IMG/VR virus record: IMGVR_UViG_2698536552_000015
Reading direction: 5' to 3' (one strand)
DNA from: a virus
Taxonomy: Duplodnaviria > Heunggongvirae > Uroviricota > Caudoviricetes
Length of the DNA: 14,019 nt
Under the pieces are notes generated by a model that was not told where the DNA came from, did no database searches, and saw nothing but the letters and a program-made list of their open reading frames with translations. The translations under genes and the position numbers were made by a program. Within the stretch, counting starts at the first letter, position 1, and each line of letters starts with the position of its first letter. Below are positions 1 to 11,022 of the stretch, piece by piece.

Positions 1-1236
1 CTACGATAACCGCGCATTCAACATGGCTACCTGTTCGTCGTTCATGTCATCAATCCACATACCGTAAATTTCATACACCATCTGCGCAGTTTCATGCCCC
101 ATCTGGCTGGCTATAAACGCCGGGTTCGCTCCTGCCGTCAACAGCCAGCAGGCAAAAGTATGCCGCGTATGGTACGGATTACGGCGGCGAATACCAGCAC
201 GTTTTACTGCTGCATTCCATCTCGCACCCAAACTGCTTACCGAGTAATAAGGTTTCTGTTTTCCGTTACACACTCTGGGCATGAAAACAAAATGCAGTTT
301 TTGCTTTTCGGTTCTGCCGTACTCCCGATGATAAAAAGTGATTTCGCTTTTGCGATGATGCCCGGTCAGTTTGTATTGCTCCTTCAGTGCTTCAAGAGCA
401 GGCTGCAGTAGTGTTACCGTCCGGATCCCCGCATTTGTTTTTGGGGGACCGAACATATCCAGTATCGTCAGGTTTCTTCTGACATTCACAACTCCCTTCT
501 CGAAATCCACATCCTCCCACGCCAGAGCAGCCAGTTCCCCGTGACGAAGCCCGGAGTATACGGCAAATTTCCACAAGTTCTGGCTCTGTCCTTTTTCACT
601 TTCCATTAATGCATTGAATTCTGTTTTAGATAACGGGTCAGGCTTTATTCTGTTTCTCTGTAATTTCTTTACTCCTTCAAATGGTTTGGTTGATATAAAT
701 CCCGACTGATACGCAAAACGTAACAACGAACAGAGCAGGGCGATATAGTTATCAACTGTGCGCACGGTTCTTCCTTTTTTGTTGGATCTTGGATTATCCA
801 GGTAAAGCGTTTCTCCATGCAGCAGTTCATTCCGGTAGTTTAAGATATCGCTATAACGAATATGCGATATCGGAGTACTCTCACAAATTATTATCCTGAG
901 TGTTTTTAATTGTGATTTCGTTTTCTTCATTGTGTTTGTTGTTAACTCTGTTTCTTTAATTTTTGTCCAGATATCACAAAGCTCCCCGAACGTTTTTATG
1001 ACCCTCGTTGTCACCATTTTTGCCCCAGTGCTGGACTGGGGAAAACGTCTTAAATACTCAAACTCACCGGAATTGATTTCATGAACTATCAACGCTCTTA
1101 AATTCCCGGCTTTTTTAATGTTACTGTTAGTAACCTCCCAGCCTTTCAATGTTTCCCGACATCGTTTTCCTCGAAACATGAACCAGATGCGAATGTATTT
1201 ACCTCGAATCTCGACACCTGTTGGTAATTTAGACAT
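1..1236 (-). CDS. intR: Rac-type prophage tyrosine integrase (411 aa), complete; stop codon is the first three bases of the window
   Basis: ORF track 1..1236 (-). Protein begins MSKLPTGVEIRGKYIRIWFMFRGKRCRETLKGW and ends in a tyrosine-recombinase C-terminal region (…NPYHTRHTFACWLLTAGANPAFIASQMGHETAQMVYEIY). Matches IntR of Rac as recalled. xis stop lies 1 nt upstream. Confidence 0.95.
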   Translation of the reverse strand: MSKLPTGVEIRGKYIRIWFMFRGKRCRETLKGWEVTNSNIKKAGNLRALIVHEINSGEFEYLRRFPQSSTGAKMVTTRVIKTFGELCDIWTKIKETELTTNTMKKTKSQLKTLRIIICESTPISHIRYSDILNYRNELLHGETLYLDNPRSNKKGRTVRTVDNYIALLCSLLRFAYQSGFISTKPFEGVKKLQRNRIKPDPLSKTEFNALMESEKGQSQNLWKFAVYSGLRHGELAALAWEDVDFEKGVVNVRRNLTILDMFGPPKTNAGIRTVTLLQPALEALKEQYKLTGHHRKSEITFYHREYGRTEKQKLHFVFMPRVCNGKQKPYYSVSSLGARWNAAVKRAGIRRRNPYHTRHTFACWLLTAGANPAFIASQMGHETAQMVYEIYGMWIDDMNDEQVAMLNARLS

Positions 1237-1237
1237 A

Positions 1238-1453
1238 TCATGAGTCTTTGATAAACTGATTTATCTTTGGATAGTTATACCAGATAATCCCTCGCTTACT
1301 GTCTGGCTTCCCTAAAGGAGATACTCGTTTGAAGTGGAAGCCTTCCACCCAACAGTTCTGGCGGTATGCTTCAATTTGTCTGGCCCCCAGACCAGTGCGA
1401 AGCATCAGGCCGTATTCAACCATCCACTCTTCATTAAAGATTACTTGTGCCAT
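1238..1453 (-). CDS. xisR: Excisionase-like protein (71 aa)
   Basis: In-frame ATG at 1453 within ORF 1238..1477 gives [71 protein letters not shown], which I recall as YdaQ/XisR. Sits immediately upstream of int (xis-int arrangement). The longer start at 1477 is possible. Confidence 0.85.
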
Positions 1454-1552
1454 CGCATCACCTCTGGCAGGCGCCAATGTTAGACTTAAATTGACGCCCG
1501 ATGTTGATTATTAATAATCAGCTATGAAGTTTTAATTTGAATACAATGCAAT

Positions 1553-1741
1553 TCACGAGGACTGAAGTTTCTCGCAATTAAAATTTATCAGTTTTACTTT
1601 CTGCTCTCTGGAAACGCCTGCTTCTTTTTTACCTGAGAGCATTTTTTCGCATTCTGATTTCGTTAGTTTAGATTTTGAATATCTTGTCCAGTTAGTAGGA
1701 GTGCCACCTTCCTTTTCAATAGTGGCGGTAATTTTATACAT
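1553..1741 (-). CDS. ydaC: Small Rac prophage protein YdaC/RcbA-like (62 aa)
   Basis: ATG at 1741 (MYKITATIEKEGGTPTNWTRYSKSKLTKSECEKMLSGKKEAGVSREQKVKLINFNCEKLQSS) inside ORF 1553..1813. The start overlaps the 3' end of the ralR frame by 8 nt. Confidence 0.7.
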   Translation of the reverse strand: MYKITATIEKEGGTPTNWTRYSKSKLTKSECEKMLSGKKEAGVSREQKVKLINFNCEKLQSS

Positions 1742-1928
1742 GAACACCTCCATTATTATTTCCAGTGGTTCGTTTATTTCATCGTTCGAGTGCTTCTTTT
1801 TCACTTCCACCATAACCGGTTCGGGATTCGCATCCGTTACACTTCGCTCGGTAATATCCTGAAATGGCTTTCACCGTTACTGATGGACAACCACAAAATG
1901 GACATGGTTTAACATTGTCATATCTCAT
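1734..1928 (-). pseudogene. ralR: ralR-like gene (restriction alleviation / type I toxin) with an in-frame TGA at codon 50; 49-aa product if terminated, 64 codons if read through
   Basis: Hand translation of the minus strand from ATG 1926-1928: MRYDNVKPCPFCGCPSVTVKAISGYYRAKCNGCESRTGYGGSEKEALER, then TGA (plus 1779-1781), then in frame NKRTTGNNNGGVHV and TAA at 1734-1736. Absent from the ORF track because it is under 60 aa. The in-frame tail matches the RalR C-terminus as I recall it. Confidence 0.55.
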
Positions 1929-1956
1929 AATTTTTCTCATAAAAATATTTCAAGTT

Positions 1957-1975
1957 GGCGGTGCATTACACCGCC
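1957..1975. other. Perfect 7-bp inverted repeat GGCGGTG-catta-CACCGCC between the recT stop and ralR start
   Basis: Read directly from the sequence. On the minus strand the U-rich tract starts about 9 nt after the stem, so this is not a canonical intrinsic terminator. Confidence 0.3.
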
Positions 1976-1983
1976 AGGCTGAA

Positions 1984-2793
1984 TTATTCCTCTGAATTAT
2001 CGATTACACTGTATTCCCCGGTTAATACAGAGGAATCTGCAGGATCGATTGTCAGTGGTTCCTTTTCATCCATTGATACTGCACGCTGGATCTCAATTGA
2101 TACGGGCAGATATTTGAACAGGCGACGAATAGCCGTTTTCTTTGCCATTTCTTCCCAGTGAGTTACCCACGGCCCGTTATTACCAGCTTTACTCTGGCTG
2201 CGCACCAGCTCAATCTGTTTGCGCGTCATAACTTCAAACTGAGTACCTCCGTCTTTCAGTCTTGCGACAGCATAGACGTGGGTAACAGGGGCATCTTCGT
2301 TTTCTCCTGGGCGGTGTATTAACTTTTCATCAAGGCCAAATTCGAAATTAAACTCGTCACCTTCACGGACAACACGGGCTGACAGGCTGGCGATTTGACC
2401 TGAACGGCGAGCCAGATCAATCATGCCGCGATAGCCAATGATTAGCTGAACGTTTTTTTTACCGCTCTTTTCGTTTTTATTACCAAAAGGCAGTAAATAT
2501 GCATGACCGAGGGCGCTACCGGGCTCAAGTCCGAGCTGTGAACACTGTACGATTGCACTGACAAAACTCATAGTGTCACAGTTTCCTAACGCCGGAACTT
2601 TACGAATTTCTGTGGTGGCGATACGGATCATACGTTCAGCCGTCATATGGCGTGGAAGAGCTGCTGCCAGTTGCTCTTTCATTGATGGCTGGTTAATAAA
2701 ACTAATCACGTCGTTATTTTTAATTGCTGCTGGTGCACGGTTTCCCTGAGTTTTTTGCAGATCGGCTTTTGCGATTGGTGGTTGCTTAGTCAT
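1984..2793 (-). CDS. recT: RecT single-strand annealing recombinase (269 aa)
   Basis: ORF 1984..2850; internal ATG at 2793 gives [41 protein letters not shown]…SVIDNSEE, recognised as RecT. AAGGAA Shine-Dalgarno 7 nt upstream. The start overlaps the recE stop by 8 nt. Confidence 0.95.
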
Positions 2794-5386
2794 TTGCATA
2801 TTCCTTAGCCCAGCGGGGCAGTGATAACGTCTTAATAGCTGGCCATTCATCGGTATTGAGGCAGTCAGCCAGGGTTCGCAGATTGCGGTGATATTCCAGC
2901 TGACCTGCCAGTTTTGCTTCTTCGCCCATCATGAAAATTTCAACCGGATAACGTCCGCATTCAATAGTTGTGCTGGCAACCAGAAAAACGAAAGTTGGCT
3001 GCACTCCAAACTGTGCTTCATAACCGTCACTGTAGAATGCATCCTGAACGTGATAGCGGTAGTCGTAATAAGCGGTTTTGAATCGTTGAATATCCGCCGT
3101 AGTTTTCACGTCCATGATCCAGTGAAATTCAGGGATAATTTTGTCCGGACGGCACCGACACAAAATTGCTGTTTCAGGATCTTCCCAGTAAATTGATGAT
3201 TCAGCGTGTCCGGCGCTTTCAACAAGCCATTGCCCCAGCGGCAAAGCCATAACGCTCTGATACATGAGTTCAATTTTCCGGCCTTCTTCGGCAGTGATAA
3301 CCGTTTTTCCTGTGCTTGCGCATTCCCTCAGAAACGCTTTCTCTTCTTCTTTTCCGGAGTTTGTCCGGCGGTTAAATTCAGGTGCTACGATAAAGCGGTT
3401 ACTGAATTCTTCCGGCTCAAGTACCCGGCAGTGGAAAGCGGTTCCTAAATCGAGCGTTTTTGTCTTTGTGGTGTCCACGGGGGCATTTTTACGCCACAAA
3501 TACAGTGCCGGAGTATCAGCAATGTCATCGAGCTGAGACTTACTGACACCGGGACCCGCGTGGTAATTCTCATTCGAAATTCCGTAATAAATACCTGGCT
3601 CTATGTCTTCTACGATTACGGGATCTGCGACTTCGCCAGTTTCATCACTGCAATCGCGATGCGGATCGCTGCCAGCATTCTCATTGTGCGGATGTTCAGC
3701 GCCTTCCATTTCCTCCGGATCATTTTCCTTAGCTTCAACCTGACTCTCTTCATCGAATGTTTCCTGGTATGTTGCGTCGCCCATCACCGCACCACAGTCA
3801 GGGCAGTTATCCCCGCCAGTCTGGCCGCAGGCATTGCAGGCTATTTCCGGTTCCTGTTGCACTACTGGCTCAGGTTGATTCATATCCGGGCTGGTTTTTT
3901 CCGTTTCTGGCTGGTTCTGGTACACACAATCGCGAGTCTGGATCCCCTTTACCCATTTCGGATCGTTCGGGTCGCTAATTCCGTCAACAAATTCACCACG
4001 TGATGCAGCAAGCAATTTATCGGCATCGACAGGATTTTTTGATGGAATGTTTTTCCGGGCTTCATGGAGTTCTGCCCGCAGTTCCTGATATTTCGCATCA
4101 ACAGAATTTACCTGTGACTGAGCATCCAGCGGCTGCGTGTCCTGATGATGTTCAGTTGCGTCCGGTTCCATTGTTTCAGCCTCTCCCTGTTCAACTGCCG
4201 TTGTTCCAGATGGTTGCGGTTTTTCTTCATCATCCTGTTTTCCTTCTTCTGTTACTCGCTGCGGCATCGGGGCAGAGGAGCGACCGCAGGCAATATCCAC
4301 GATTTCCGGATCAGGGTTGGCATGATCGGTTTCAGTCAGTACTTTGTTCAGATATTCAGTGACGTGCGCGGGGATGACCTCGATCCCAATTGGTGCTTCT
4401 TTTACGGACGCAACCACGATGGCGCGGGAATAATCCAGCCCGCCAGGCATGGTGATGAATTTGTCGCGGAAAACAGAAAAGGGCGGTTTATTTTCAGCGA
4501 TAATTTCCTCAATGCGTTTAGCGTGTGCCGGATGAAGGTTATAGATGTCCAGATCCATTGAACGGGCCAGTACGCCAGTGGCTACGTCCCGCGCCAGTGA
4601 CGTCAGATCGTGTACGAAACCTTCGCCGCGATCGGTGAGGTTTCCGCCGCCAGCATTAGCACCGGAAGCCGTGCGAGTGATGTGTGAAACACGATTACCC
4701 TTCATCCACTCTTTTGTCAGCAGTCCTCGATCGGTGTAGTCAGCGTTCAGGTATGCTTCGAAAAAAGCAGTTATCAGTCCCAGGTTTGAATTACCAGGAT
4801 TAGGGAAAACTTTGTCAGTGTCACGAACCAGTTTGTGGAGTTCGCGAATTTCCAGCGGGTCGAGCAGGCTGGTTTTGTGGGAAACAGCCAGGGCAGTAAC
4901 AGCCGGTAGTTCTTCAGCCCGAGCAATGTGTAATGCCTGGAGTCCGTCGCGTGAAACGTGCGTTACCGGTTTTTCGCTGCCGTGTTGAGCAAGCCAACGA
5001 ATGGGCAGTTCCTGGCCAGAAATTGGGAGTAGCATATTCTCCTCAATCTCAGTCATGTCTTCGCCGTTGACGTTGGTATTGCCTTGATAGTGAGCGTTGT
5101 CTGGTGCTGCTCCCGGTTTTAGTTCCCATGTCATGGAGTCTTTGCTGAGTTGATAGCGTTCACTCCAGGTAAAATCGATCTCACCTTCAGCGGGCAGGTC
5201 ATTAACGACAGGAAAATTCGTGGCAACAGCTTTAAAATAGCTGCTCAGTTTTTTACCTGACTTAACGATCAGGTAGTCCAGAGTGGCACAGGTCGATTCA
5301 AAATCGTTGCTTGCCCACAGGACGACGTCAGGTTCACCGGATGATTTTTTCGCTTTCCGTAACAGGAAGAGTGGTTTTGTGCTCAT
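2786..5386 (-). CDS. recE: Exodeoxyribonuclease VIII RecE (866 aa)
   Basis: ORF track 2786..5386 (-), 866 aa, [33 protein letters not shown]… with an acidic low-complexity middle and a C-terminal nuclease domain. Matches RecE of Rac in length and sequence as recalled. Confidence 0.95.
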
Positions 5387-5459
5387 TGTTTTTTAACCTC
5401 AACTCAGATTAAAATTCGTTTTGTTCAGTGAATGATCTTGCCGGATACACACTGTTCAT

Positions 5460-5480
5460 AGCCTGCGCCATACGCAGGCT
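5460..5480. other. 8-bp perfect inverted repeat AGCCTGCG-ccata-CGCAGGCT in the racC-recE intergenic region
   Basis: Read directly from the sequence. Lies 7 nt downstream of the racC stop on the minus-strand transcript and is followed on the plus strand by ATTTCTTTCA. Candidate RNA stem-loop or weak terminator. Confidence 0.3.
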
Positions 5481-5487
5481 ATTTCTT

Positions 5488-5763
5488 TCAGATTTCACCT
5501 TTTAATTTCATTGCAATTAGAGTTGCCAGAAATTCGGCTTTTTTTTCTGCGGGCAGATTCTTTCCGATATGCACCAGGCACATTTTTTTGACACCTTCAT
5601 CAAGTGTTTTTACGTTGCCTGATGGACCATCGATATCAACCACAGTGAATGGGGTTTCTTTATTTTCTGTTTTAATTACGTAGCCAATGCGCTTTCCTTC
5701 CAGATTCACCTCGTGAACAATGTCATCGGTAGTTACAACAGTGGCTTCATAATTGGTAATCAT
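5488..5763 (-). CDS. racC: Rac prophage protein RacC (91 aa)
   Basis: Internal ATG at 5763 in ORF 5488..5811 gives MITNYEATVVTTDDIVHEVNLEGKRIGYVIKTENKETPF…KLKGEI. AAGGAGAAA Shine-Dalgarno upstream. Confidence 0.85.
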   Translation of the reverse strand: MITNYEATVVTTDDIVHEVNLEGKRIGYVIKTENKETPFTVVDIDGPSGNVKTLDEGVKKMCLVHIGKNLPAEKKAEFLATLIAMKLKGEI

Positions 5764-5837
5764 GTTTTTCTCCTTAATTAAGGTTGAGCGAATACCTGCC
5801 ATTTCTGGCATAAATTCAGTTTCGAATAGTCAATTAA

Positions 5838-6008
5838 TTAAAGTTCATGTGCCATCTGGTCTTTTTCGGCACAAGCTTCACTGCAATATTTTCTCGGTTC
5901 GTCTTTTGATAAAATCCCGTGCATGAAGTGAAGCATTCTTTCAATAGCTTTGCTTTCTTCAACGTCTTTTTTGCAAAGGTGGTAAGCACATTTTATTTTC
6001 TTAGTCAT
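5838..6008 (-). CDS. ydaE: Small Cys-rich protein YdaE (56 aa)
   Basis: Hand-translated minus-strand [59 protein letters not shown]. Not in the ORF track (under 60 aa). Its ATG overlaps the kilR stop as ATGA. Confidence 0.75.
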   Translation of the reverse strand: MTKKIKCAYHLCKKDVEESKAIERMLHFMHGILSKDEPRKYCSEACAEKDQMAHEL

Positions 6009-6229
6009 CACCATGACTCCGCCTTTACAGGTAAACCATCACGACCGAGGAAGACTTTAATCATGCGGTCAGTAATGCATGTTTTTGTGGTCAGGTTACG
6101 AATATATAGTTTTCGCTTTTTAATATTGTTTGCCGAGGCAATATATGTCCGGCCTTCATGAAGAACATAATCGCCAGGAGTCACACACTGACGTGGTATT
6201 TCATCAGTTCCGAAGTGATGTGCAATCAT
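6008..6229 (-). CDS. kilR: Killing protein KilR, FtsZ-targeting cell-division inhibitor (73 aa)
   Basis: ATG at 6229 in ORF 6008..6241 gives [77 protein letters not shown] Shine-Dalgarno 6 nt upstream. Confidence 0.85.
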
Positions 6230-6410
6230 AATTATCTCCATTTTTACAAATGAACTTTGTTGATGCGGTGCCTGGTGCCTCCAGGTGACTGCAACCAGTT
6301 AACAATTACAGTCGGCTTTCCCACCCAAACCAATAAGGACTAACATGACTTTTAACTGTGCCACGTGCGCTTAGCCGCATTCACCGCATCACAAAATTCA
6401 CTTTAAAAAG

Positions 6411-6452
6411 GGCGGACATCAGCCGAACTTCAAGAAAAAAACTGATGCCGCC
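6411..6452. promoter_or_regulatory. Imperfect inverted repeat GGCGGACATCAG-N19-CTGATGCCGCC in the kilR/sieB divergent intergenic region
   Basis: Read directly: arms at 6411-6422 and 6442-6452 are complementary apart from a 1-nt bulge. Candidate protein-binding site or RNA structure near the presumed early-left promoter. Confidence 0.3.
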
Positions 6453-6670
6453 AGGACTACACACAGCAATGTCGTTATTTACAACCGGAGGCGCACTCCC
6501 ACCATTTAAATTTAACAGACAAGACCGACTCTTTATGGATATCGGAAATGCGCCTTCGTGTTGTGCCCGGTTTTATTTCACCACCTCCGGGCTTCGGTGG
6601 TCTCGGCTATACCCCTACAGCGAGAGCTTGTGTTAACATTTCAATACCCTTACAGTTGAGAGTTATTGAT

Positions 6671-7159
6671 ATGTTGGATGTATTTACTCCATTGTTGAAA
6701 CTTTTTGCTAACGAGCCACTCGAAATACTTATGTATACGATTATCATTTTTGGTCTCACTCTCTGGCTGATACCGAAAGAGTTTACTGTCGCATTCAATG
6801 CTTATACTGAAATACCTTGGCTCTTTCAGATTATCGTTTTTGCCTTTTCTTTCGTGGTCGCCATTTCCTTCTCAAGATTGCGAGCACATATTCAAAAGCA
6901 TTATTCATTACTACCAGAGCAACGAGTATTGCTTCGTTTATCTGAGAAAGAAATCGCTGTATTTAAAGATTTCCTTAAAACAGGAAATCTTATTATCACT
7001 TCTCCTTGCCGTAACCCGGTTATGAAAAAATTAGAACGGAAGGGCATCATTCAACATCAGAGTGATAGCGCAAACTGTTCTTATTATCTCGTCACCGAAA
7101 AATACTCCCATTTTATGAAGTTATTCTGGAACAGCAGGAGTAGACGTTTTAATCGTTAG
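6671..7159 (+). CDS. sieB: Superinfection exclusion protein SieB (162 aa), membrane protein
   Basis: ATG at 6671 in ORF 6548..7159 gives MLDVFTPLLKLFANEPLEILMYTIIIFGLTLWLIPKEF… with hydrophobic N-terminal segments. Matches SieB as recalled. Confidence 0.85.
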   Translation: MLDVFTPLLKLFANEPLEILMYTIIIFGLTLWLIPKEFTVAFNAYTEIPWLFQIIVFAFSFVVAISFSRLRAHIQKHYSLLPEQRVLLRLSEKEIAVFKDFLKTGNLIITSPCRNPVMKKLERKGIIQHQSDSANCSYYLVTEKYSHFMKLFWNSRSRRFNR

Positions 7160-7311
7160 CTTACTGTGTGCTTCTCCAACCATCGGCGCGCACCAGTTTC
7201 GGTTTTAAATGTTTTGCTTTTGGTATACGTCATGGCAGTGAACGTTCCATCCTGGTTGGGGAACACGCCGCACACCAGGGATTCGTTGTTGCCGAGGTCG
7301 ATTTTTTGCAT
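7156..7311 (-). CDS. ydaF: Small protein YdaF-like (51 aa)
   Basis: Hand-translated minus-strand ORF MQKIDLGNNESLVCGVFPNQDGTFTAMTYTKSKTFKTETGARRWLEKHTVS (ATG 7309-7311, TAA 7156-7158). Not in the ORF track. Its 3' end overlaps the sieB stop convergently by 4 nt. Assignment to ydaF rests on length and position. Confidence 0.55.
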   Translation of the reverse strand: MQKIDLGNNESLVCGVFPNQDGTFTAMTYTKSKTFKTETGARRWLEKHTVS

Positions 7312-7321
7312 TTTGCGAATC

Positions 7322-7456
7322 TCACATCTTGTTGCTGTGTATAGCGACTTCTGCCTGCCAGAGATCCCAGTCGTTGCTGCGTAAAGCCTGCACAGCCTGG
7401 TTGTAAGTGATACCGCAACAATCCATCAAATACTGAACTACTTCGTAATGCACCAT
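7322..7456 (-). CDS. ydaG: Small protein YdaG-like (44 aa)
   Basis: Internal ATG at 7456 in ORF 7322..7504 gives MVHYEVVQYLMDCCGITYNQAVQALRSNDWDLWQAEVAIHSNKM. GGGGAGAG Shine-Dalgarno 6 nt upstream. Confidence 0.6.
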   Translation of the reverse strand: MVHYEVVQYLMDCCGITYNQAVQALRSNDWDLWQAEVAIHSNKM

Positions 7457-7624
7457 CTTATCTCTCCCCTTAACGCCGGGTGGCGGAACTGAAACCTGCT
7501 GCACTGCAAAATCTGAACCCTGCCGTCATGTTCATACGCCTCGGGCTGGCTACTTAACCCCTGACCACTGCCTGGTAACTCGAAGTATTGCCCTGCGTTC
7601 TGTGGGGCGGGGTGGGTTGGTAGG

Positions 7625-7680
7625 TATATAATGTACTTTGTGTTCATTGATGTAAAGTACTATAAGTACATTTTGTGTGT
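7625..7680. promoter_or_regulatory. Cluster of GTAC-core repeats with promoter-like hexamers downstream of the racR stop; candidate operator/promoter region (OL-like)
   Basis: Plus-strand TATATAAT at 7625-7632; ATGTACT at 7631-7637; AAGTACT at 7655-7661; AGTACAT at 7665-7671; TTTGTGT follows two of the copies. On the minus strand, TTTACA-N17/19-CATTAT/TTATAT could drive ydaG-ydaF. Confidence 0.3.
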
Positions 7681-7746
7681 AAAAAAATGAGATGGGATAA
7701 AGTGAAGCACAAACCCGGAGGGGGACGCTACCGGATTTATGCTGGT

Positions 7747-8184
7747 TTAAGAGGCTTTTTGTTTTTTCTTTCGTGCTAGCTCTTCGTAAATTGCATTGTA
7801 CTTCTGTTTTTTCTCCTCAAGAGTTTTTAAAAGTTCATCTGTCTCACTGTCAGGGAGCTCGTCCAGAAGGTCAATGATGATTTTTTGTCTTGGATTTAAC
7901 TCCTGATAGAAACGTACCTGTCCACTTTCTTCTGTATCCTCTCCCAAAAGATAGGTTGGTGTTGTTCCAATGAGTGTTGCTAATTCCCTTAATTTCTCTC
8001 GGCGAGGAATTGTTTCGCCATTAAACCATTTGCTAACCGCTTTTGGTGTTAATTTCATTCGACGGGCAATTTCTGCCTGCCTTCCATGTTGTTCATAACC
8101 AGCGTTTTCACAGGCTAGCGCAAGCCTACTGGCGAACTCTTTACGCGCTTTATCTTCATGAACCATAAGTTCAATGATATTCAC
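7747..8184 (-). CDS. racR: Prophage repressor RacR (XRE/cI-type helix-turn-helix), 145 aa from GTG 8184 or 139 aa from ATG 8166
   Basis: ORF 7747..8184: MNIIELMVHEDKARKEFASRLALACENAGYEQHGRQAEIARRMKLTPKAVSKWFNGETIPRREKLRELATLIG… (HTH), acidic/basic C-terminus. No clear Shine-Dalgarno, consistent with a short-leader or leaderless repressor mRNA. Confidence 0.85.
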   Translation of the reverse strand: MNIIELMVHEDKARKEFASRLALACENAGYEQHGRQAEIARRMKLTPKAVSKWFNGETIPRREKLRELATLIGTTPTYLLGEDTEESGQVRFYQELNPRQKIIIDLLDELPDSETDELLKTLEEKKQKYNAIYEELARKKKQKAS

Positions 8185-8186
8185 TC

Positions 8187-8221
8187 TTGAATGTACTGTC
8201 AGTTCTGTTATAGCATGTACT
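8187..8221 (+). promoter_or_regulatory. Candidate ydaS promoter (TTGAAT-N16-TATAGC) flanked by two direct ATGTACT repeats; putative RacR operator region (OR-like)
   Basis: -35 TTGAAT at 8187-8192, -10 TATAGC at 8209-8214, ATGTACT at 8191-8197 and 8215-8221. Lies between divergent racR and ydaS. Confidence 0.4.
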
Positions 8222-8245
8222 CAAAGTTCACATTGTGAGGGTGAT

Positions 8246-8500
8246 ATGAACCAGAAAACACTTGAAGATGTAATCAAAACTGTTCGCGTTTCTGTTGTGG
8301 CCGACGTTTGTGGTGTCAGCCAAAGAGCAATCTACAAATGGATGGATAACGGAAAATTGCCTCGCACAGAATATACCGGCGAAACAAATTACGCTGAAAA
8401 AATCGCTCATGCATCAAACGGATTATTTTCTGCTGATGTAATTTTAACTATTGGCAGAAATAAAACTACTACGAAAAAGCTGATGGGAGTTGATTCATGA
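8246..8500 (+). CDS. ydaS: Cro-like helix-turn-helix protein YdaS (84 aa)
   Basis: ATG at 8246 preceded by GAGG gives MNQKTLEDVIKTVRVSVVADVCGVSQRAIYKWMDNGKLPRTEY… with an HTH motif. Divergent from racR. Its stop overlaps the ydaT start as ATGA. Confidence 0.8.
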   Translation: MNQKTLEDVIKTVRVSVVADVCGVSQRAIYKWMDNGKLPRTEYTGETNYAEKIAHASNGLFSADVILTIGRNKTTTKKLMGVDS

Positions 8501-8919
8501 AAATCAAGCATGAGCACATCGAGTCAGTGTTGTTAGCCCTGGCAGCCGAAAAAGGGCAGGCATGGGTAGCCAATGCCATTACTGAAGAATATCTGCGCCA
8601 GGGGGGCGGCGAATTGCCCCTGGTACCAGGCAAGGACTGGAATAATCAGCAGAATATCTATCACCGTTGGTTGAAAGGTGAAACGAAAACGCAAAGAGAA
8701 AAAATTCAGAAGCTGATCCCAGCAATTCTGGCAATCCTTCCGCGCGAGCTGCGTCACCGACTCTGCATCNNNNNNNNNNNNNNNNNNNNNNNNNNNNNNN
8801 NNNNNNNNNNNNNNNNNNNNNNNNNNNNNNNNNNNNNNNNNNNNNNNNNNNNNNNNNNNNNNNNNNNNNNNNNNNNNNNNNNNNNNNNNNNNNNNNNNNN
8901 NNNNNNNNNNNNNNNNNNN
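8497..8919 (+). CDS. ydaT: YdaT-like protein; N-terminal 91 codons visible (8497..8769), 3' end hidden in an N run (end inferred from a recalled length of about 140 aa)
   Basis: MKIKHEHIESVLLALAAEKGQAWVANAITEEYLRQGGGELPLVPGKDWNNQQNIYHRWLKGETKTQREKIQKLIPAILAILPRELRHRLCI then N run. GGGAG Shine-Dalgarno upstream. Confidence 0.7.
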
Positions 8920-9030
8920 NNNNNNNNNNNNNNNNNNNNNNNNNNNNNNNNNNNNNNNNNNNNNNNNNNNNNNNNNNNNNNNNNNNNNNNNNNNNNNNNN
9001 NNNNNNNNNNNNNNNNNNNNNNNNNNNNNN
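8770..9030. other. N-masked run (261 nt), no sequence information
   Basis: Run of n in the input; hides the ydaT 3' end and ydaU 5' end. Confidence 0.99.
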
Positions 9031-9814
9031 TACCTGGCTGACACCATGCATTTGTCAGCAGAGGAGCATGGTGCGTATTTGTTGCTGATGTTCAATTACT
9101 GGCAAACAGGAAAGCCAATACCTAAAAACAGGCTGGCAAAAATTGCCCGTCTGACTAACGAGCGATGGGCTGATGTTGAACCATCCTTGCAGGAGTTTTT
9201 TTGCGATAACGGCGAGGAATGGGTGCATCTTCGGATTGAGGAAGATCTGGCATCANNNNNNNNNNNNNNNNNNNNNNNNNNNNNNNNNNNNNNNNNNNNN
9301 NNNNNNNNNNNNNNNNNNNNNNNNNNNNNNNNNNNNNNNNNNNNNNNNNNNNNNNNNNNNNNNNNNNNNNNNNNNNNNNNNNNNNNNNNNNNNNNNNNNN
9401 NNNNNNNNNNNNNNNNNNNNNNNNNNNNNNNNNNNNNNNNNNNNNNNNNNNNNNNNNNNNNNNNNNNNNNNNNNNNNNNNNNNNNNNNNNNNNNNNNNNN
9501 NNNNNAAAAAGTTTGACCCTCTGGATATTGCTTTGCCGAACTGGATTTCTGTCTCGCTTTGGCGTGAGTGGGTTGAATTTCGCCAGGCATTGCGAAAACC
9601 GATTCGAACGGAGCAGGGCGCTAACGGGGCGATACGGGAGCTGGAAAAATTCCGCCAGCAGGGTTTTTCACCTGAGCAGGTGATTCGACACAGCATCGCC
9701 AATGAATACCAGGGCTTGTTCGCGCCGAAAGGTGTTCGACCTGAGACGTTACTCCGACAGGTTAACACCGTCTCGTTACCGGATAGTGCGATCCCGCCAG
9801 GCTTCAGGGGGTAA
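8957..9814 (+). CDS. ydaU: DUF1376-type replication-associated protein YdaU-like; start inferred inside an N run, interrupted by a second N run
   Basis: Visible segments: 9031-9255 YLADTMHLSAEEHGAYLLLMFNYWQTGKPIPKNRLAKIARLTNERWADVEPSLQEFFCDNGEEWVHLRIEEDLAS (DUF1376-like motif), and 9506-9814 KKFDPLDIALPNWISVSLWREWVEFRQALRKPIRTEQGANGAIRELEKFRQQGFSPEQVIRHSIANEYQGLF…PPGFRG*. The two segments are in different frames (+1 across the 250-nt N run). Confidence 0.65.
9256..9505. other. N-masked run (250 nt)
   Basis: Run of n in the input, inside ydaU. Confidence 0.99.
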
Positions 9815-9820
9815 CTGACC

Positions 9821-11022
9821 ATGAAAAATATTGCGACAGGCGACGTTCTTGAACGTATCCGCAGACTGGCCCCGTCACATGTAACCGCGCCATTCAAGAC
9901 GGTAGCGGAGTGGCGCGAGTGGCAACTTTCCGAAGGCCAGAAACGTTGTGAGGAGATCAACCGTCAGAATCGTCAGTTGCGGGTGGAAAAAATTCTGAAT
10001 CGCTCTGGCATCCAGCCATTGCACCGCAAATGCTCGTTTTCGAATTACCAGGTGCAGAACGAAGCGCAGCGATACGCGTTGAGTCAGGCGAAATCCATCG
10101 CTGATGAACTGATGACCGGGTGTACAAATTTTGCGTTCAGCGGAAAACCTGGTACCGGGAAGAACCACTTAGCGGCAGCTATCGGGAATCGCCTGCTGAA
10201 AGACGGTCAGACAGTGATTGTGGTTACCGTGGCTGATGTTATGAGTGNNNNNNNNNNNNNNNNNNNNNNNNNNNNNNNNNNNNNNNNNNNNNNNNNNNNN
10301 NNNNNNNNNNNNNNNNNNNNNNNNNNNNNNNNNNNNNNNNNNNNNNNNNNNNNNNNNNNNNNNNNNNNNNNNNNNNNNNNNNNNNNNNNNNNNNNNNNNN
10401 NNNNNNNNNNNNNNNNNNNNNNNNNNNNNNNNNNNNNNNNNNNNNNNNNNNNNNNNNNNNNNNNNNNNNNNNNNNNNNNNNNNNNNNNNNNNNNNNNNNN
10501 NGAACGACGGCCAGCGATACGCGTTAAGCCAGGCGAAATCCATCGCCGATGAACNNNNNNNNNNNNNNNNNNNNNNNNNNNNNNNNNNNNNNNNNNNNNN
10601 NNNNNNNNNNNNNNNNNNNNNNNNNNNNNNNNNNNNNNNNNNNNNNNNNNNNNNNNNNNNNNNNNNNNNNNNNNNNNNNNNNNNNNNNNNNNNNNNNNNN
10701 NNNNNNNNNNNNNNNNNNNNNNNNNNNNNNNNNNNNNNNNNNNNNNNNNNNNNNNNNNNNNNNNNNNNNNNNNNNNNNNNNNNNNNNNNNNNNNNNNNNN
10801 NNNNNNNNNNNNNNNNNNNNGGTGGTGCTGCACCAGATTGTTGATCGCCGGACAGCGTCGATGCGCAGCGTGGGGATGCTGACAAACCTGAACTATGAGG
10901 TGATGAAAACATTGCTCGGCGAGCGGGTGATGGATCGCATGGTCATGAACGGCGGGCGCTGGGTGAATTTTAACTGGGAGAGCTGGCGTCCGAATGTTAG
11001 CCATTCGAGGGTTGTTAAGTAG
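9821..11022 (+). CDS. ydaV: DnaC-like replication/helicase-loader protein YdaV region with an AAA+ Walker A motif; about 450 nt longer than expected and containing a diverged second copy of an internal segment (one enlarged gene, or a 5' fragment plus a second full copy)
   Basis: N-terminal 142 codons visible (9821-10246): MKNIATGDVLERIRRLAPSHVTAPFKTVAEW…FSGKPGTGKNHLAAAIGNRLLKDGQTVIVVTVADVMS. C-terminal segment 10822-11022: VVLHQIVDRRTASMRSVGMLTNLNYEVMKTLLGERVMDRMVMNGGRWVNFNWESWRPNVSHSRVVK*. The island 10502-10554 repeats residues around 79-96. Frames differ between segments (2, 3, 1). Confidence 0.7.
10248..10501. other. N-masked run (254 nt)
   Basis: Run of n in the input, inside the ydaV region. 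Confidence 0.99.
10555..10820. other. N-masked run (266 nt)
   Basis: Run of n in the input, inside the ydaV region. Confidence 0.99.

What the first reader, a model, noticed from the sequence alone, without database searches (positions are those of the whole stretch)
7457..7746. GTAC-core repeat cluster downstream of racR: candidate second operator set
The 290-nt spacer between the racR stop and ydaG start carries three GTAC-core motifs (ATGTACT 7631-7637, AAGTACT 7655-7661, AGTACAT 7665-7671), two followed by TTTGTGT, plus a near-consensus plus-strand TATATAAT and a minus-strand TTTACA…TTATAT. The same ATGTACT motif flanks the ydaS promoter on the other side of racR, so racR appears bracketed by related sites, like OL/OR around lambda cI. 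A plus-strand promoter here would also read antisense into racR.
Basis: seen in the sequence. Interest (0 to 1): 0.45.

Follow-up and report, generated by a model that had tools for sequence, protein, structure and literature searches.

The report
Left operators of a prophage switch

Summary
The motifs are real and non-random. The three GTAC heptamers are half-sites of two 17-bp pseudo-palindromes (ATGWAC-N5-GTWCAT): 7631-7647 and 7655-7671, 24 bp centre to centre. Three more lie on the other side of the repressor gene (8158-8174, 8191-8207, 8215-8231). The core taken from the phage 933W literature (GWAC-N5-GTWC) hits the 14-kb window five times, at exactly these sites (0.56 expected). The left pair overlaps a minus-strand promoter, TTTACA-17-CATTAT, pointing into ydaG...recET...intR. 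The predicted start (~7621) coincides with the point (7622/7623) where homology to K-12 Rac ends. The gene is therefore not K-12 racR. It belongs to a swapped immunity cassette whose repressor has an HK022/933W-like DNA-binding domain and a DicA-like tail. Operator number, spacing and promoter position match HK022 and 933W OL/PL. In 56 spacer variants the half-sites are nearly invariant while the central bases vary. K-12 Rac, Qin and seven further cassettes show the same layout with their own motifs. A plus-strand antisense promoter is not supported. Verdict: a correct call of an OL/PL region, a new member of a known kind, of modest interest. No binding or start-site experiment exists for this sequence.

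The parts
7631..7647 (.). OL1-like operator ATGTAC-TTTGT-GTTCAT. It overlaps the -10 hexamer and spacer of the leftward promoter.
   Evidence: 0 mismatches to ATGWAC-N5-GTWCAT. Exact GWAC-N5-GTWC core. Aligns in register with HK022 ATGTACTTAAAGTTCAT and with 933W-type OL1. Half-site columns are almost invariant in 56 variants.
7655..7671 (.). OL2-like operator AAGTAC-TATAA-GTACAT, 24 bp centre to centre from OL1. It overlaps the upstream edge of the -35.
   Evidence: 1 mismatch and exact core. Aligns with HK022 AAGTACCAATAGTACAT and 933W-type OL2. The 24-bp spacing equals that of the HK022 and 933W-type OL pairs.
7628..7656 (-). PL-like sigma-70 promoter: -35 TTTACA (7656-7651), 17-nt spacer, -10 CATTAT (7633-7628). 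Predicted start about 7621.
   Evidence: Promoter scan, 9/12. Same hexamers and geometry as HK022 (TTTACA-17-CATCAT) and the 933W type (TTGATA-17-CATTAT). TGTAAA is nearly invariant in 56 variants. A promoter at this position is found in 10 of 10 cassette classes. The start site is inferred, not mapped.
7458..7622 (-). Conserved 5' leader of the leftward operon, from the predicted +1 to the ydaG-like start codon.
   Evidence: 98.7% identical to K-12 Rac up to 7622. Shared by 117 loci carrying 10 different immunity cassettes. No Rfam match. No significant fold, z = +1.14.
7623..8490 (.). Immunity cassette, non-homologous to K-12 Rac: OL/PL, terminator-like hairpin, repressor gene, OR region and cro-like gene.
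   Evidence: blastn against MG1655 Rac: homology ends at 7622 and resumes at 8491.
7706..7743 (-). Stable hairpin immediately after the repressor stop codon (terminator-like, weak U tract).
   Evidence: 13-bp stem within a fold of -19.7 kcal/mol for the 101-nt segment, z = -3.9. Stem conserved and loop variable across loci. Does not pass the terminator scan.
7747..8166 (-). Repressor gene (139 aa): HK022/933W-like HTH domain plus a DicA-like C-terminal tail, with no Peptidase_S24 domain.
   Evidence: Pfam HTH_3 only. 47% identity to HK022 cI over residues 4-102. 51% identity to 933W-type cI over residues 1-73. 29% identity to DicA, including the C-terminus. Multiple alignment. HK022 and 933W-type cI carry Peptidase_S24.
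8158..8174 (.). OR3-like operator ATGAAC-CATAA-GTTCAA, overlapping the repressor start codon.
   Evidence: Aligns with 933W-type OR3 and the HK022 site at L208 1824-1836.
8191..8207 (.). OR2-like operator, 33 bp from OR3.
   Evidence: HK022 spacing is 33 bp and the 933W-type spacing is 32 bp.
8215..8231 (.). OR1-like operator, 24 bp from OR2.
8174..8202 (-). PRM-like promoter CTGACA-17-TATCAT. Its -10 ends 8 nt before the repressor ATG, giving a near-leaderless mRNA.
   Evidence: Promoter scan, 10/12. The HK022 counterpart CTGATA-17-TATAGT ends 8 nt before its ATG.
8187..8214 (+). PR-like promoter for the cro-like gene: -35 TTGAAT, 16-nt spacer, TGt-TATAGC.
   Evidence: Read from the sequence. 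In register with HK022 TTGACT-16-CATAAT. Below the scan threshold, so this part is inferred.
8246..8500 (+). cro-like gene (84 aa).
   Evidence: 62% identity to HK022 Cro and 47% to 933W Cro.
7322..7457 (-). ydaG-like first gene of the leftward operon.
   Evidence: Annotated in near-identical genomes and in K-12.

Best explanation
The cluster is the left operator/promoter (OL/PL) of the prophage immunity switch. Dimers of the 139-aa repressor encoded at 7747-8166 bind two 17-bp dyads. OL1 (7631-7647) covers the -10 and spacer of the minus-strand promoter TTTACA-17-CATTAT, and OL2 (7655-7671) covers the edge of its -35. [quoted passage not shown] The same protein binds three related sites (OR3, OR2, OR1) between its own gene and the cro-like gene. 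When the repressor is lost, PL fires from about 7621, and the Cro-like protein probably binds the same sites later.

Shown here: the sites, their statistics, their conservation pattern, the promoter-like hexamers, the cassette boundary and the homology to HK022 and 933W.

Inferred: actual binding, the start site, repression, and any OL-OR looping.
For: 1. Five sites of one type lie only on the two flanks of the repressor gene. Both a pattern trained only on the right-hand sites and a pattern from the literature recover the left sites.
2. The OL1-OL2 and OR2-OR1 spacings are both 24 bp.
3. A leftward promoter overlaps the sites.
4. Homology to K-12 Rac ends at 7622/7623, the predicted +1, so the sites travel with the repressor gene. 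All 85 loci with a 99-100% identical repressor keep the sites, in both Rac-like and Qin-like left arms.
5. Across 56 spacer variants, half-site columns carry a mean of 0.42 minor-allele sequences per column. The central N5 carries 7.3, the inter-operator gap 3.4 and the flanks 1.7-2.7.
6. The repressor recognition helix TPKAVSKWFNGE is close to HK022 TPKAISKWFNGE and 933W SSKGVSKWFNAE.
7. 933W sites are 15-bp dyads with positions 2-5 strongly conserved, G mostly at 2 and A and C invariant at 4 and 5, and five natural sites exist (PMC3317979). GenBank GQ499363 annotates OL1, OL2 and OR1-3. The window sites align one to one with these and with the HK022 sites, with the same geometry: 24 bp in OL, and 33 (window, HK022) or 32 (933W type) then 24 bp in OR.
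8. PL hexamers sit at the same place in HK022 and the 933W type.
9. Independent replicates exist. K-12 Rac has two matches to the footprint-derived RacR consensus WTAGGC-N3-GCCTAW over an 11/12 leftward promoter at the homologous spot (PMC9638921). Qin has DicA-type dyads at dicBp, which DicA represses 22-fold (PMC10448788). Ten cassette classes each have a promoter ending 2-8 nt before the common junction, and left-region 8-mers that recur next to the repressor start.
10. RacR depletion in K-12 derepresses ydaG through intR (PMC6765115, PMC11014345, bioRxiv 10.64898/2026.09.06.749655).
Against: - There is no footprint, ChIP or start-site map for this cassette.
- The promoter match is moderate (9/12), and the scan finds about as many promoter-like sites in shuffled sequence.
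- The 17-bp consensus was defined after looking at the sites, although avoid that circularity.
- The 56 variants are phylogenetically related, so the conservation contrast is not a formal test.
- The repressor lacks the cI-type C-terminal domain, so cooperativity and looping cannot be carried over from HK022.
- Position 41 of the recognition helix is P here and in HK022, but S in 933W.
Confidence: 0.88

Rival explanations
1. The sites are real repressor sites, but their main job is architectural. They would anchor an OL-OR loop of about 560 bp that tightens repression of PR or tunes PRM, or they would serve mainly the Cro-like protein, with direct occlusion of a leftward promoter being secondary or absent.
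For: HK022 CI loops between its OL and OR, about 700 bp apart (PMC8053113). The window sites are 560 bp from the OR sites. Cro proteins of lambdoid phages share operators with the repressor (established knowledge), and the Cro-like protein here is 62% identical to HK022 Cro.
Against: The sites sit exactly on -10/-35 hexamers, in the same register as PL of HK022 and the 933W type. All ten cassette classes place a promoter there. The repressor has a DicA-like tail rather than the cI oligomerisation domain. This reading complements rather than excludes PL repression.
Confidence: 0.08
2. The cluster marks a plus-strand promoter (TATAAT, 7627-7632) that makes an RNA antisense to the repressor gene, and the GTAC sites regulate that promoter.
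For: A perfect -10 hexamer lies on the plus strand at 7627-7632, followed by the operator sites.
Against: There is no -35-like hexamer 16-18 nt upstream (GGGGCG, GGGCGG or TGGGGC) and no TG extension. The scan does not report it. The hexamer is the reverse-strand image of the A/T-rich PL -10 region. Its T/A positions vary among loci (TATGAT, TATAAC, CATAAT). No counterpart is described for HK022, 933W or Qin in the papers read.
Confidence: 0.03
3. The repeats are chance similarities in an A/T-rich spacer and have no function.
For: Short A/T-rich heptamers recur easily. The AWGTACW count alone is only modestly enriched: 9 matches against 4.1 expected, reached or exceeded by 9 of 200 shuffles.
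Against: (0 of 200 shuffles reach the observed count). The half-site versus centre conservation contrast. One-to-one alignment with the HK022 sites and the annotated 933W-type operators.
Confidence: 0.01

Closest known systems
Phage HK022 OL/PL (OL1, OL2) and OR, bound by HK022 CI
   Same: The half-sites are almost identical: HK022 OL1 is ATGTACTTAAAGTTCAT and OL2 is AAGTACCAATAGTACAT. Spacing is 24 bp in OL and 33 then 24 bp in OR. The PL -35 is the same (TTTACA, 17-nt spacer). The PRM-like promoter ends 8 nt before the ATG, as here. The recognition helix differs by one residue, and Cro is 62% identical. HK022 CI binds cooperatively within OL and OR, and loops between them (PMC8053113).
   Different: HK022 CI is 235 aa with a Peptidase_S24 domain; this repressor is 139 aa with a DicA-like tail. 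HK022 is reported to have an OL3 53 bp beyond OL2 and an extra operator about 300 bp downstream of OR (PMC8053113; core hit at L208 2148-2160). Neither has a counterpart in the window. Downstream of PL, HK022 carries a different leader and the nun gene, whereas the window has the Rac-type leader.
Shiga-toxin phage 933W OL1/OL2 and OR1-3
   Same: There are exactly five natural sites, two in OL and three in OR, on 15-bp dyads with positions 2-5 strongly conserved (PMC3317979; GenBank GQ499363 features). OR3 lies over the repressor start codon. PL is TTGATA-17-CATTAT, with OL1 overlapping the -10. The repressor N-terminal domain is 51% identical, and K42 and K46 of the recognition helix are conserved.
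   Different: Flanking bases of the sites differ. 933W position 1 is poorly conserved, with consensus C, whereas A-T precedes the G here. 933W cI carries Peptidase_S24. In 933W the stk gene lies between OL and cI, and nutL and N follow PL. The 933W repressor is reported not to bind adjacent sites cooperatively (PMC3317979).
Qin prophage DicA / dicBp
   Same: The gene order is the same: repressor gene, short spacer with a promoter reading away from it, then small genes of the DUF1391 (ydaF/ydfA) family. The repressor is short, lacks a cleavage domain and shares the C-terminal LP-SE helical tail (29% identity). DicA-type dyads lie on both flanks of dicA. DicA represses dicBp 22-fold (PMC10448788). 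The last 35 nt or so of the leader before the first gene are homologous.
   Different: The operator sequence is different (GTTAGY-N4-RCTAAC) and the operator spacing is 35 bp. The N-terminal domain belongs to another specificity group.
K-12 Rac RacR operators
   Same: The prophage backbone is the same (98.7% identity outside the cassette). Two consensus RacR dyads (L002 8630-8644 and 8655-8669, 25 bp apart) overlap a leftward TTGACA-17-TATAGT at the homologous position. Three operators lie in the racR-ydaS region, one of them over the racR ATG, and a leaderless racR promoter has been described (PMC9638921).
   Different: RacR (158 aa) and its operators (WTAGGC-N3-GCCTAW) are unrelated in sequence to those of the window. 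None of the RacR papers read mentions the left pair.
Lambda OL/PL and CP-933P PL933P
   Same: The logic is the same: repressor sites on both sides of the repressor gene control divergent early promoters (PMC8630535 for CP-933P; established knowledge for lambda).
   Different: Lambda has three sites in OL and an unrelated operator sequence. CP-933P has a toxin-antitoxin pair downstream of its repressor gene and different repeats.

Membership tests
Lambdoid OL/PL operator-promoter region | Two or more sites of the same type as the OR sites, on the far side of the repressor gene | tested here: met
   Two left and three right sites, and no other site with up to 2 mismatches in 14 kb. The literature core GWAC-N5-GTWC gives 5 of 5 hits at these sites.
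Lambdoid OL/PL operator-promoter region | Sites overlap a promoter that reads away from the repressor gene into the early-left operon | tested here: met
   Minus-strand TTTACA-17-CATTAT at 7656..7628 overlaps both sites. It is positionally conserved in HK022, the 933W type and 10 cassette classes. This is a consensus match only; activity was not measured.
Lambdoid OL/PL operator-promoter region | Operators co-inherited with the repressor gene as one immunity module | tested here: met
   The cassette boundary is at 7622/7623 relative to K-12. The sites are present in all 85 loci with this repressor, whatever the left arm. They are absent from loci that share the leader but carry other repressors.
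Lambdoid OL/PL operator-promoter region | Repressor binds the sites and represses leftward transcription | not testable with these tools
   Needs EMSA or footprinting, reporter fusions and 5'-end mapping. Only indirect support exists, from K-12 RacR depletion (PMC6765115, PMC11014345) and DicA/dicBp (PMC10448788).
HK022/933W immunity group | Repressor DNA-binding domain homologous, with a conserved recognition helix | tested here: met
   47% identity to HK022 cI and 51% to 933W-type cI. K42 and K46 are conserved.
HK022/933W immunity group | Operator core GWAC-N5-GTWC with OL 24 bp and OR 32-33 then 24 bp geometry | tested here: met
HK022/933W immunity group | LexA-like C-terminal Peptidase_S24 domain (RecA-stimulated self-cleavage) | tested here: not met
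   Pfam finds only HTH domains in the 139-aa protein. HK022 and 933W-type cI both hit Peptidase_S24. The protein is therefore not a cI-type repressor, although its DNA-binding half and its operators are.
HK022/933W immunity group | Same immunity specificity (cross-repression) as HK022 or 933W | not testable with these tools
   Requires superinfection or cross-binding assays.
DicA family repressor | Match to the DicA family model over its full length | tested here: inconclusive
   NCBIfam PRK09706 gives E = 2e-15 and 56.8 bits, below the 101-bit cut-off. BLASTP gives 29% identity over residues 30-137, including the C-terminal tail.
K-12 RacR orthologue | Sequence homology to RacR and RacR-type operators (WTAGGC-N3-GCCTAW) | tested here: not met
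   There is no nucleotide homology between window 7623-8490 and K-12. The proteins are unrelated in length and sequence, and the operators differ.

The most novel reading that the evidence does not exclude
This very common Rac/Qin-type prophage repressor (in about 19% of complete E. coli genomes) joins an HK022/933W-type recognition helix to a DicA-type tail without a self-cleavage domain. It could therefore occupy the operators of HK022-immunity phages, and perhaps of the Stx2 phage 933W. That would give SOS-insensitive cross-immunity, or damp Stx-phage induction in strains that carry both.
Probability: 0.2. Interest if true: 0.55.

Novelty: new member of a known kind. Interest (0 to 1): 0.3.

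Why it matters
The result assigns a concrete control element to the leftward early operon of a widespread Rac-like prophage. That operon holds kilR, recET, ralR and the excision genes, and the result shows where and how it is kept silent.

The same analysis points to an equivalent pair of RacR operators on a near-consensus promoter upstream of ydaG in K-12 Rac. None of the RacR papers I read mentions this pair. It would explain directly why RacR depletion switches on genes as far away as xisR and intR.

The analysis also shows that the +1 of PL is the junction at which at least ten different immunity cassettes are joined to one conserved leader. This is a clean example of modular exchange in lambdoid prophages.

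None of this changes current concepts. It fills in an expected part of the switch.

Tried and rejected
- **Rfam:** a search of 7100-8300 at a permissive E-value found only two chance-level hits, so the spacer holds no known RNA family.
- **Leader structure:** folding the leader (7622 to 7455, minus strand) gave z = +1.14. I saw no obvious boxA/boxB or similarity to HK022 putL by eye, though this was not systematically tested.
- **Terminator:** the scan found none in 7300-8400. The hairpin after the repressor gene is stable but lacks a canonical U tract.
- **69-aa minus-strand ORF 7438-7647:** rejected. It starts inside OL1, upstream of the predicted +1, and has no Pfam hit.
- **21-codon ORF in the leader (7535-7470, minus strand):** its frame is not preserved in the Tritos-type leader, which has +1 and +3 nt indels.
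- **Third left operator:** not found. There is no GWAC or GTWC tetramer in 7672-7746, and the nearest 4-mismatch match (7796) is a lone half-site inside the gene.
- **OFR-like site downstream of the cro-like gene:** not found.
- **Genome-contig scan with the repressor:** returned a single locus. A single-protein query reaches only close relatives, so covariation between diverged repressors and their operators could not be tested that way.
- **Literature:** searches for a described Rac OL/PL, ydaG promoter or sbcA promoter found nothing specific.
- **TTTGTGT as part of the motif:** rejected on conservation.

Full report
**Context.** The window is a Rac-like prophage of a non-K-12 E. coli. It holds intR, xisR, rcbA, ralR, recT, recE, racC, ydaE, kilR, sieB, ydaF, a ydaG-like gene, a repressor gene, a cro-like gene, ydaT, ydaU and ydaV. 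Against MG1655 Rac it is 98.7% identical from 1 to 7622. It has no homology from 7623 to 8490, and homology resumes at 8491, in ydaT. It encodes a 139-aa protein unrelated to the 158-aa RacR.

**The observation.**
- ATGTACT occurs four times in the window, twice in 7631-7671 and twice in 8191-8221, and nowhere else.
- The repeat finder shows that the heptamers are parts of longer units.
- The units are 17-bp pseudo-palindromes of the form ATGWAC-N5-GTWCAT.
- Five sites have at most 2 mismatches: 7631-7647 and 7655-7671 on the left, and 8158-8174, 8191-8207 and 8215-8231 on the right.
- The next-best matches have 3 mismatches and are scattered across the window.
- The left pair and the right-most pair both have 24-bp centre-to-centre spacing.

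**Tests against chance.** Because I derived the 17-mer from the sites themselves, I ran two tests that avoid that circularity.
- A pattern built only from the right-hand sites recovers both left sites: 8 matches against 1.5 expected, and 0 of 200 shuffles reach 8.
- The core taken from published 933W operator work, GWAC-N5-GTWC, gives exactly five hits, at the five sites, against 0.56 expected, and 0 of 200 shuffles reach 5 (PMC3317979).

**Promoter.**
- The scan finds a minus-strand TTTACA-17-CATTAT at 7656..7628.
- OL1 covers its -10 and spacer, and OL2 touches its -35.
- The predicted start, about 7621, coincides with the cassette junction at 7622/7623.
- The plus-strand TATAAT (7627-7632) has no -35 and no TG extension, and the scan does not report it. 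I treat it as the mirror image of the A/T-rich -10 region.

**Conservation.**
- Eighty-one loci from public collections encode a 99-100% identical repressor. Four more loci came from annotated genome records.
- All of them keep the spacer, although their left arms differ. Some are Rac-like and some Qin-like, for example phage Tritos with dicB and dicF.
- Among 56 distinct spacer variants, the 24 half-site columns carry a mean of 0.42 minor-allele sequences per column. The ten central columns carry 7.3, the inter-operator gap 3.4 and the flanks 1.7-2.7.
- This is the pattern expected for a dimeric helix-turn-helix operator.
- The sequences are related to one another, so this contrast is supportive rather than a formal test.

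**Relatives with experimental data.**
- The repressor's first ~100 residues are 47% identical to HK022 CI, and its first 73 residues are 51% identical to 933W-type CI.
- The recognition helix is TPKAVSKWFNGE, against TPKAISKWFNGE in HK022 and SSKGVSKWFNAE in 933W.
- The Cro-like protein is 62% identical to HK022 Cro and 47% to 933W Cro.
- The 933W repressor binds five natural 15-bp dyads in which positions 2-5 are strongly conserved: G at position 2 in nine of ten half-sites, A or T at 3, and A and C invariant at 4 and 5 (PMC3317979).
- GenBank GQ499363 annotates OL1, OL2, OR3, OR2 and OR1 for a 933W-type immunity region.
- HK022 has the same core at two sites left of cI (24 bp apart) and three sites right of it (33 and 24 bp apart). 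It also has one site beyond cro, at the reported position of its extra operator (PMC8053113).
- The window's five sites align one to one with these.
- HK022 OL is nearly the same sequence: ATGTACTTAAAGTTCAT-TAATGTA-AAGTACCAATAGTACAT.
- PL sits at the same place in both phages: TTTACA-17-CATCAT in HK022 and TTGATA-17-CATTAT in the 933W type.

**What differs.** HK022 and 933W CI carry a Peptidase_S24 domain. The window protein does not. Its C-terminal 50 residues resemble DicA of Qin, with 29% identity over residues 30-137. The NCBIfam DicA model matches at E = 2e-15 but below its cut-off. The protein is thus a chimera in evolutionary terms. Induction by RecA-stimulated self-cleavage is unlikely (inference).

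**Independent replicates of the architecture.**
- **K-12 Rac.** The footprint-derived RacR consensus (PMC9638921) hits three times in the racR-ydaS region. It hits twice in the ydaG-racR spacer, over an 11/12 leftward promoter that ends 8 nt before the same junction.
- **Qin.** DicA-type dyads lie on both flanks of dicA. The promoter in the dicA-ydfA spacer, dicBp, is repressed 22-fold by DicA (PMC10448788).
- **Leader survey.** A scan anchored on a leader 25-mer returned 117 usable sequences (115 IMG/VR loci plus the window and K-12 Rac). They fall into ten non-homologous cassettes, all joined to the leader at the same point. In every class the best or joint-best minus-strand promoter match ends 2-8 nt before the junction. 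Words from the left region recur 0.5-1.3 kb away; in the classes where a repressor ORF could be placed they lie at its start.
- **RacR depletion.** In K-12 it derepresses ydaG through intR (PMC6765115, PMC11014345, bioRxiv 10.64898/2026.09.06.749655).

**Mechanism.** Repressor dimers on OL1 and OL2 occlude PL and silence the leftward operon. The same protein acts on OR1-3.
- Shown here: the sites, their statistics, conservation, promoter hexamers, the junction and the homology.
- Inferred: binding, the start site, repression, Cro-like binding, and any looping across the 560 bp between OL and OR.

**Novelty.** The kind is textbook. I found no description of this cassette's operators, or of the K-12 Rac left pair, in the searchable library. 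I rate the finding a new member of a known kind, with interest 0.3.

Noticed in passing
L002 8627-8669 (MG1655 about 1,419,626-1,419,668): K-12 Rac has two matches to the published RacR operator consensus (ATAGGTAATGCCTAA and ATAGGCTATGCCTAA, 25 bp apart). They overlap a leftward TTGACA-17-TATAGT promoter between racR and ydaG. None of the RacR papers I read mentions ydaG-side operators.
   Followed up: partly
window 7622/7623; loci L087-L196: The predicted +1 of PL is a recombination junction. 117 loci share the leader but carry ten non-homologous immunity cassettes, each with its own dyads and a promoter ending 2-8 nt before the junction.
   Followed up: partly
window 7465-7622 (minus strand): The ~157-nt leader between PL and the first gene is conserved across Rac-like and Qin-like arms. 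Its 5' end is C-rich (CCAACCCACCCCGCCCCACAG). It has no Rfam match and no significant fold. Its function is unknown; a Rho-utilisation site is a guess.
   Followed up: partly
window 7747-8166 (minus strand): The repressor is a chimera in evolutionary terms: an HK022/933W-type DNA-binding domain with a DicA-type C-terminal tail and no Peptidase_S24 domain. The 1-kb query holding it is at least 80% covered in 1041 of 5426 complete E. coli genomes.
   Followed up: partly
window 7706-7743 (minus strand): A 13-bp-stem hairpin lies right after the repressor stop codon (z = -3.9), with a conserved stem and a variable loop. Other cassette classes have canonical hairpin-plus-U terminators at this position; here the U tract is weak.
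   Followed up: partly
window 8158-8202: A PRM-like promoter (CTGACA-17-TATCAT) ends 8 nt before the repressor ATG, which implies a near-leaderless mRNA. The OR3-like site covers the start codon. This matches reports for lambda cI, PaaR2 and K-12 RacR.
   Followed up: no
window 8770-9030, 9256-9505, 10248-10501, 10555-10820: There are four runs of N (1031 bases) in the window. The 339-aa 'ORF' at 8497-9516 is an artefact of reading through them.
   Followed up: yes
L208 2148-2160 (HK022): A sixth GWAC-N5-GTWC site lies just beyond HK022 cro, matching the reported extra operator about 300 bp downstream of OR. The window has no counterpart after its cro-like gene.
   Followed up: partly
window 7535-7470 (minus strand): A 21-codon ORF lies in the leader and ends just before the ydaG ribosome-binding site. 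Its frame is not preserved in the Tritos-type leader, so it is probably not coding.
   Followed up: partly
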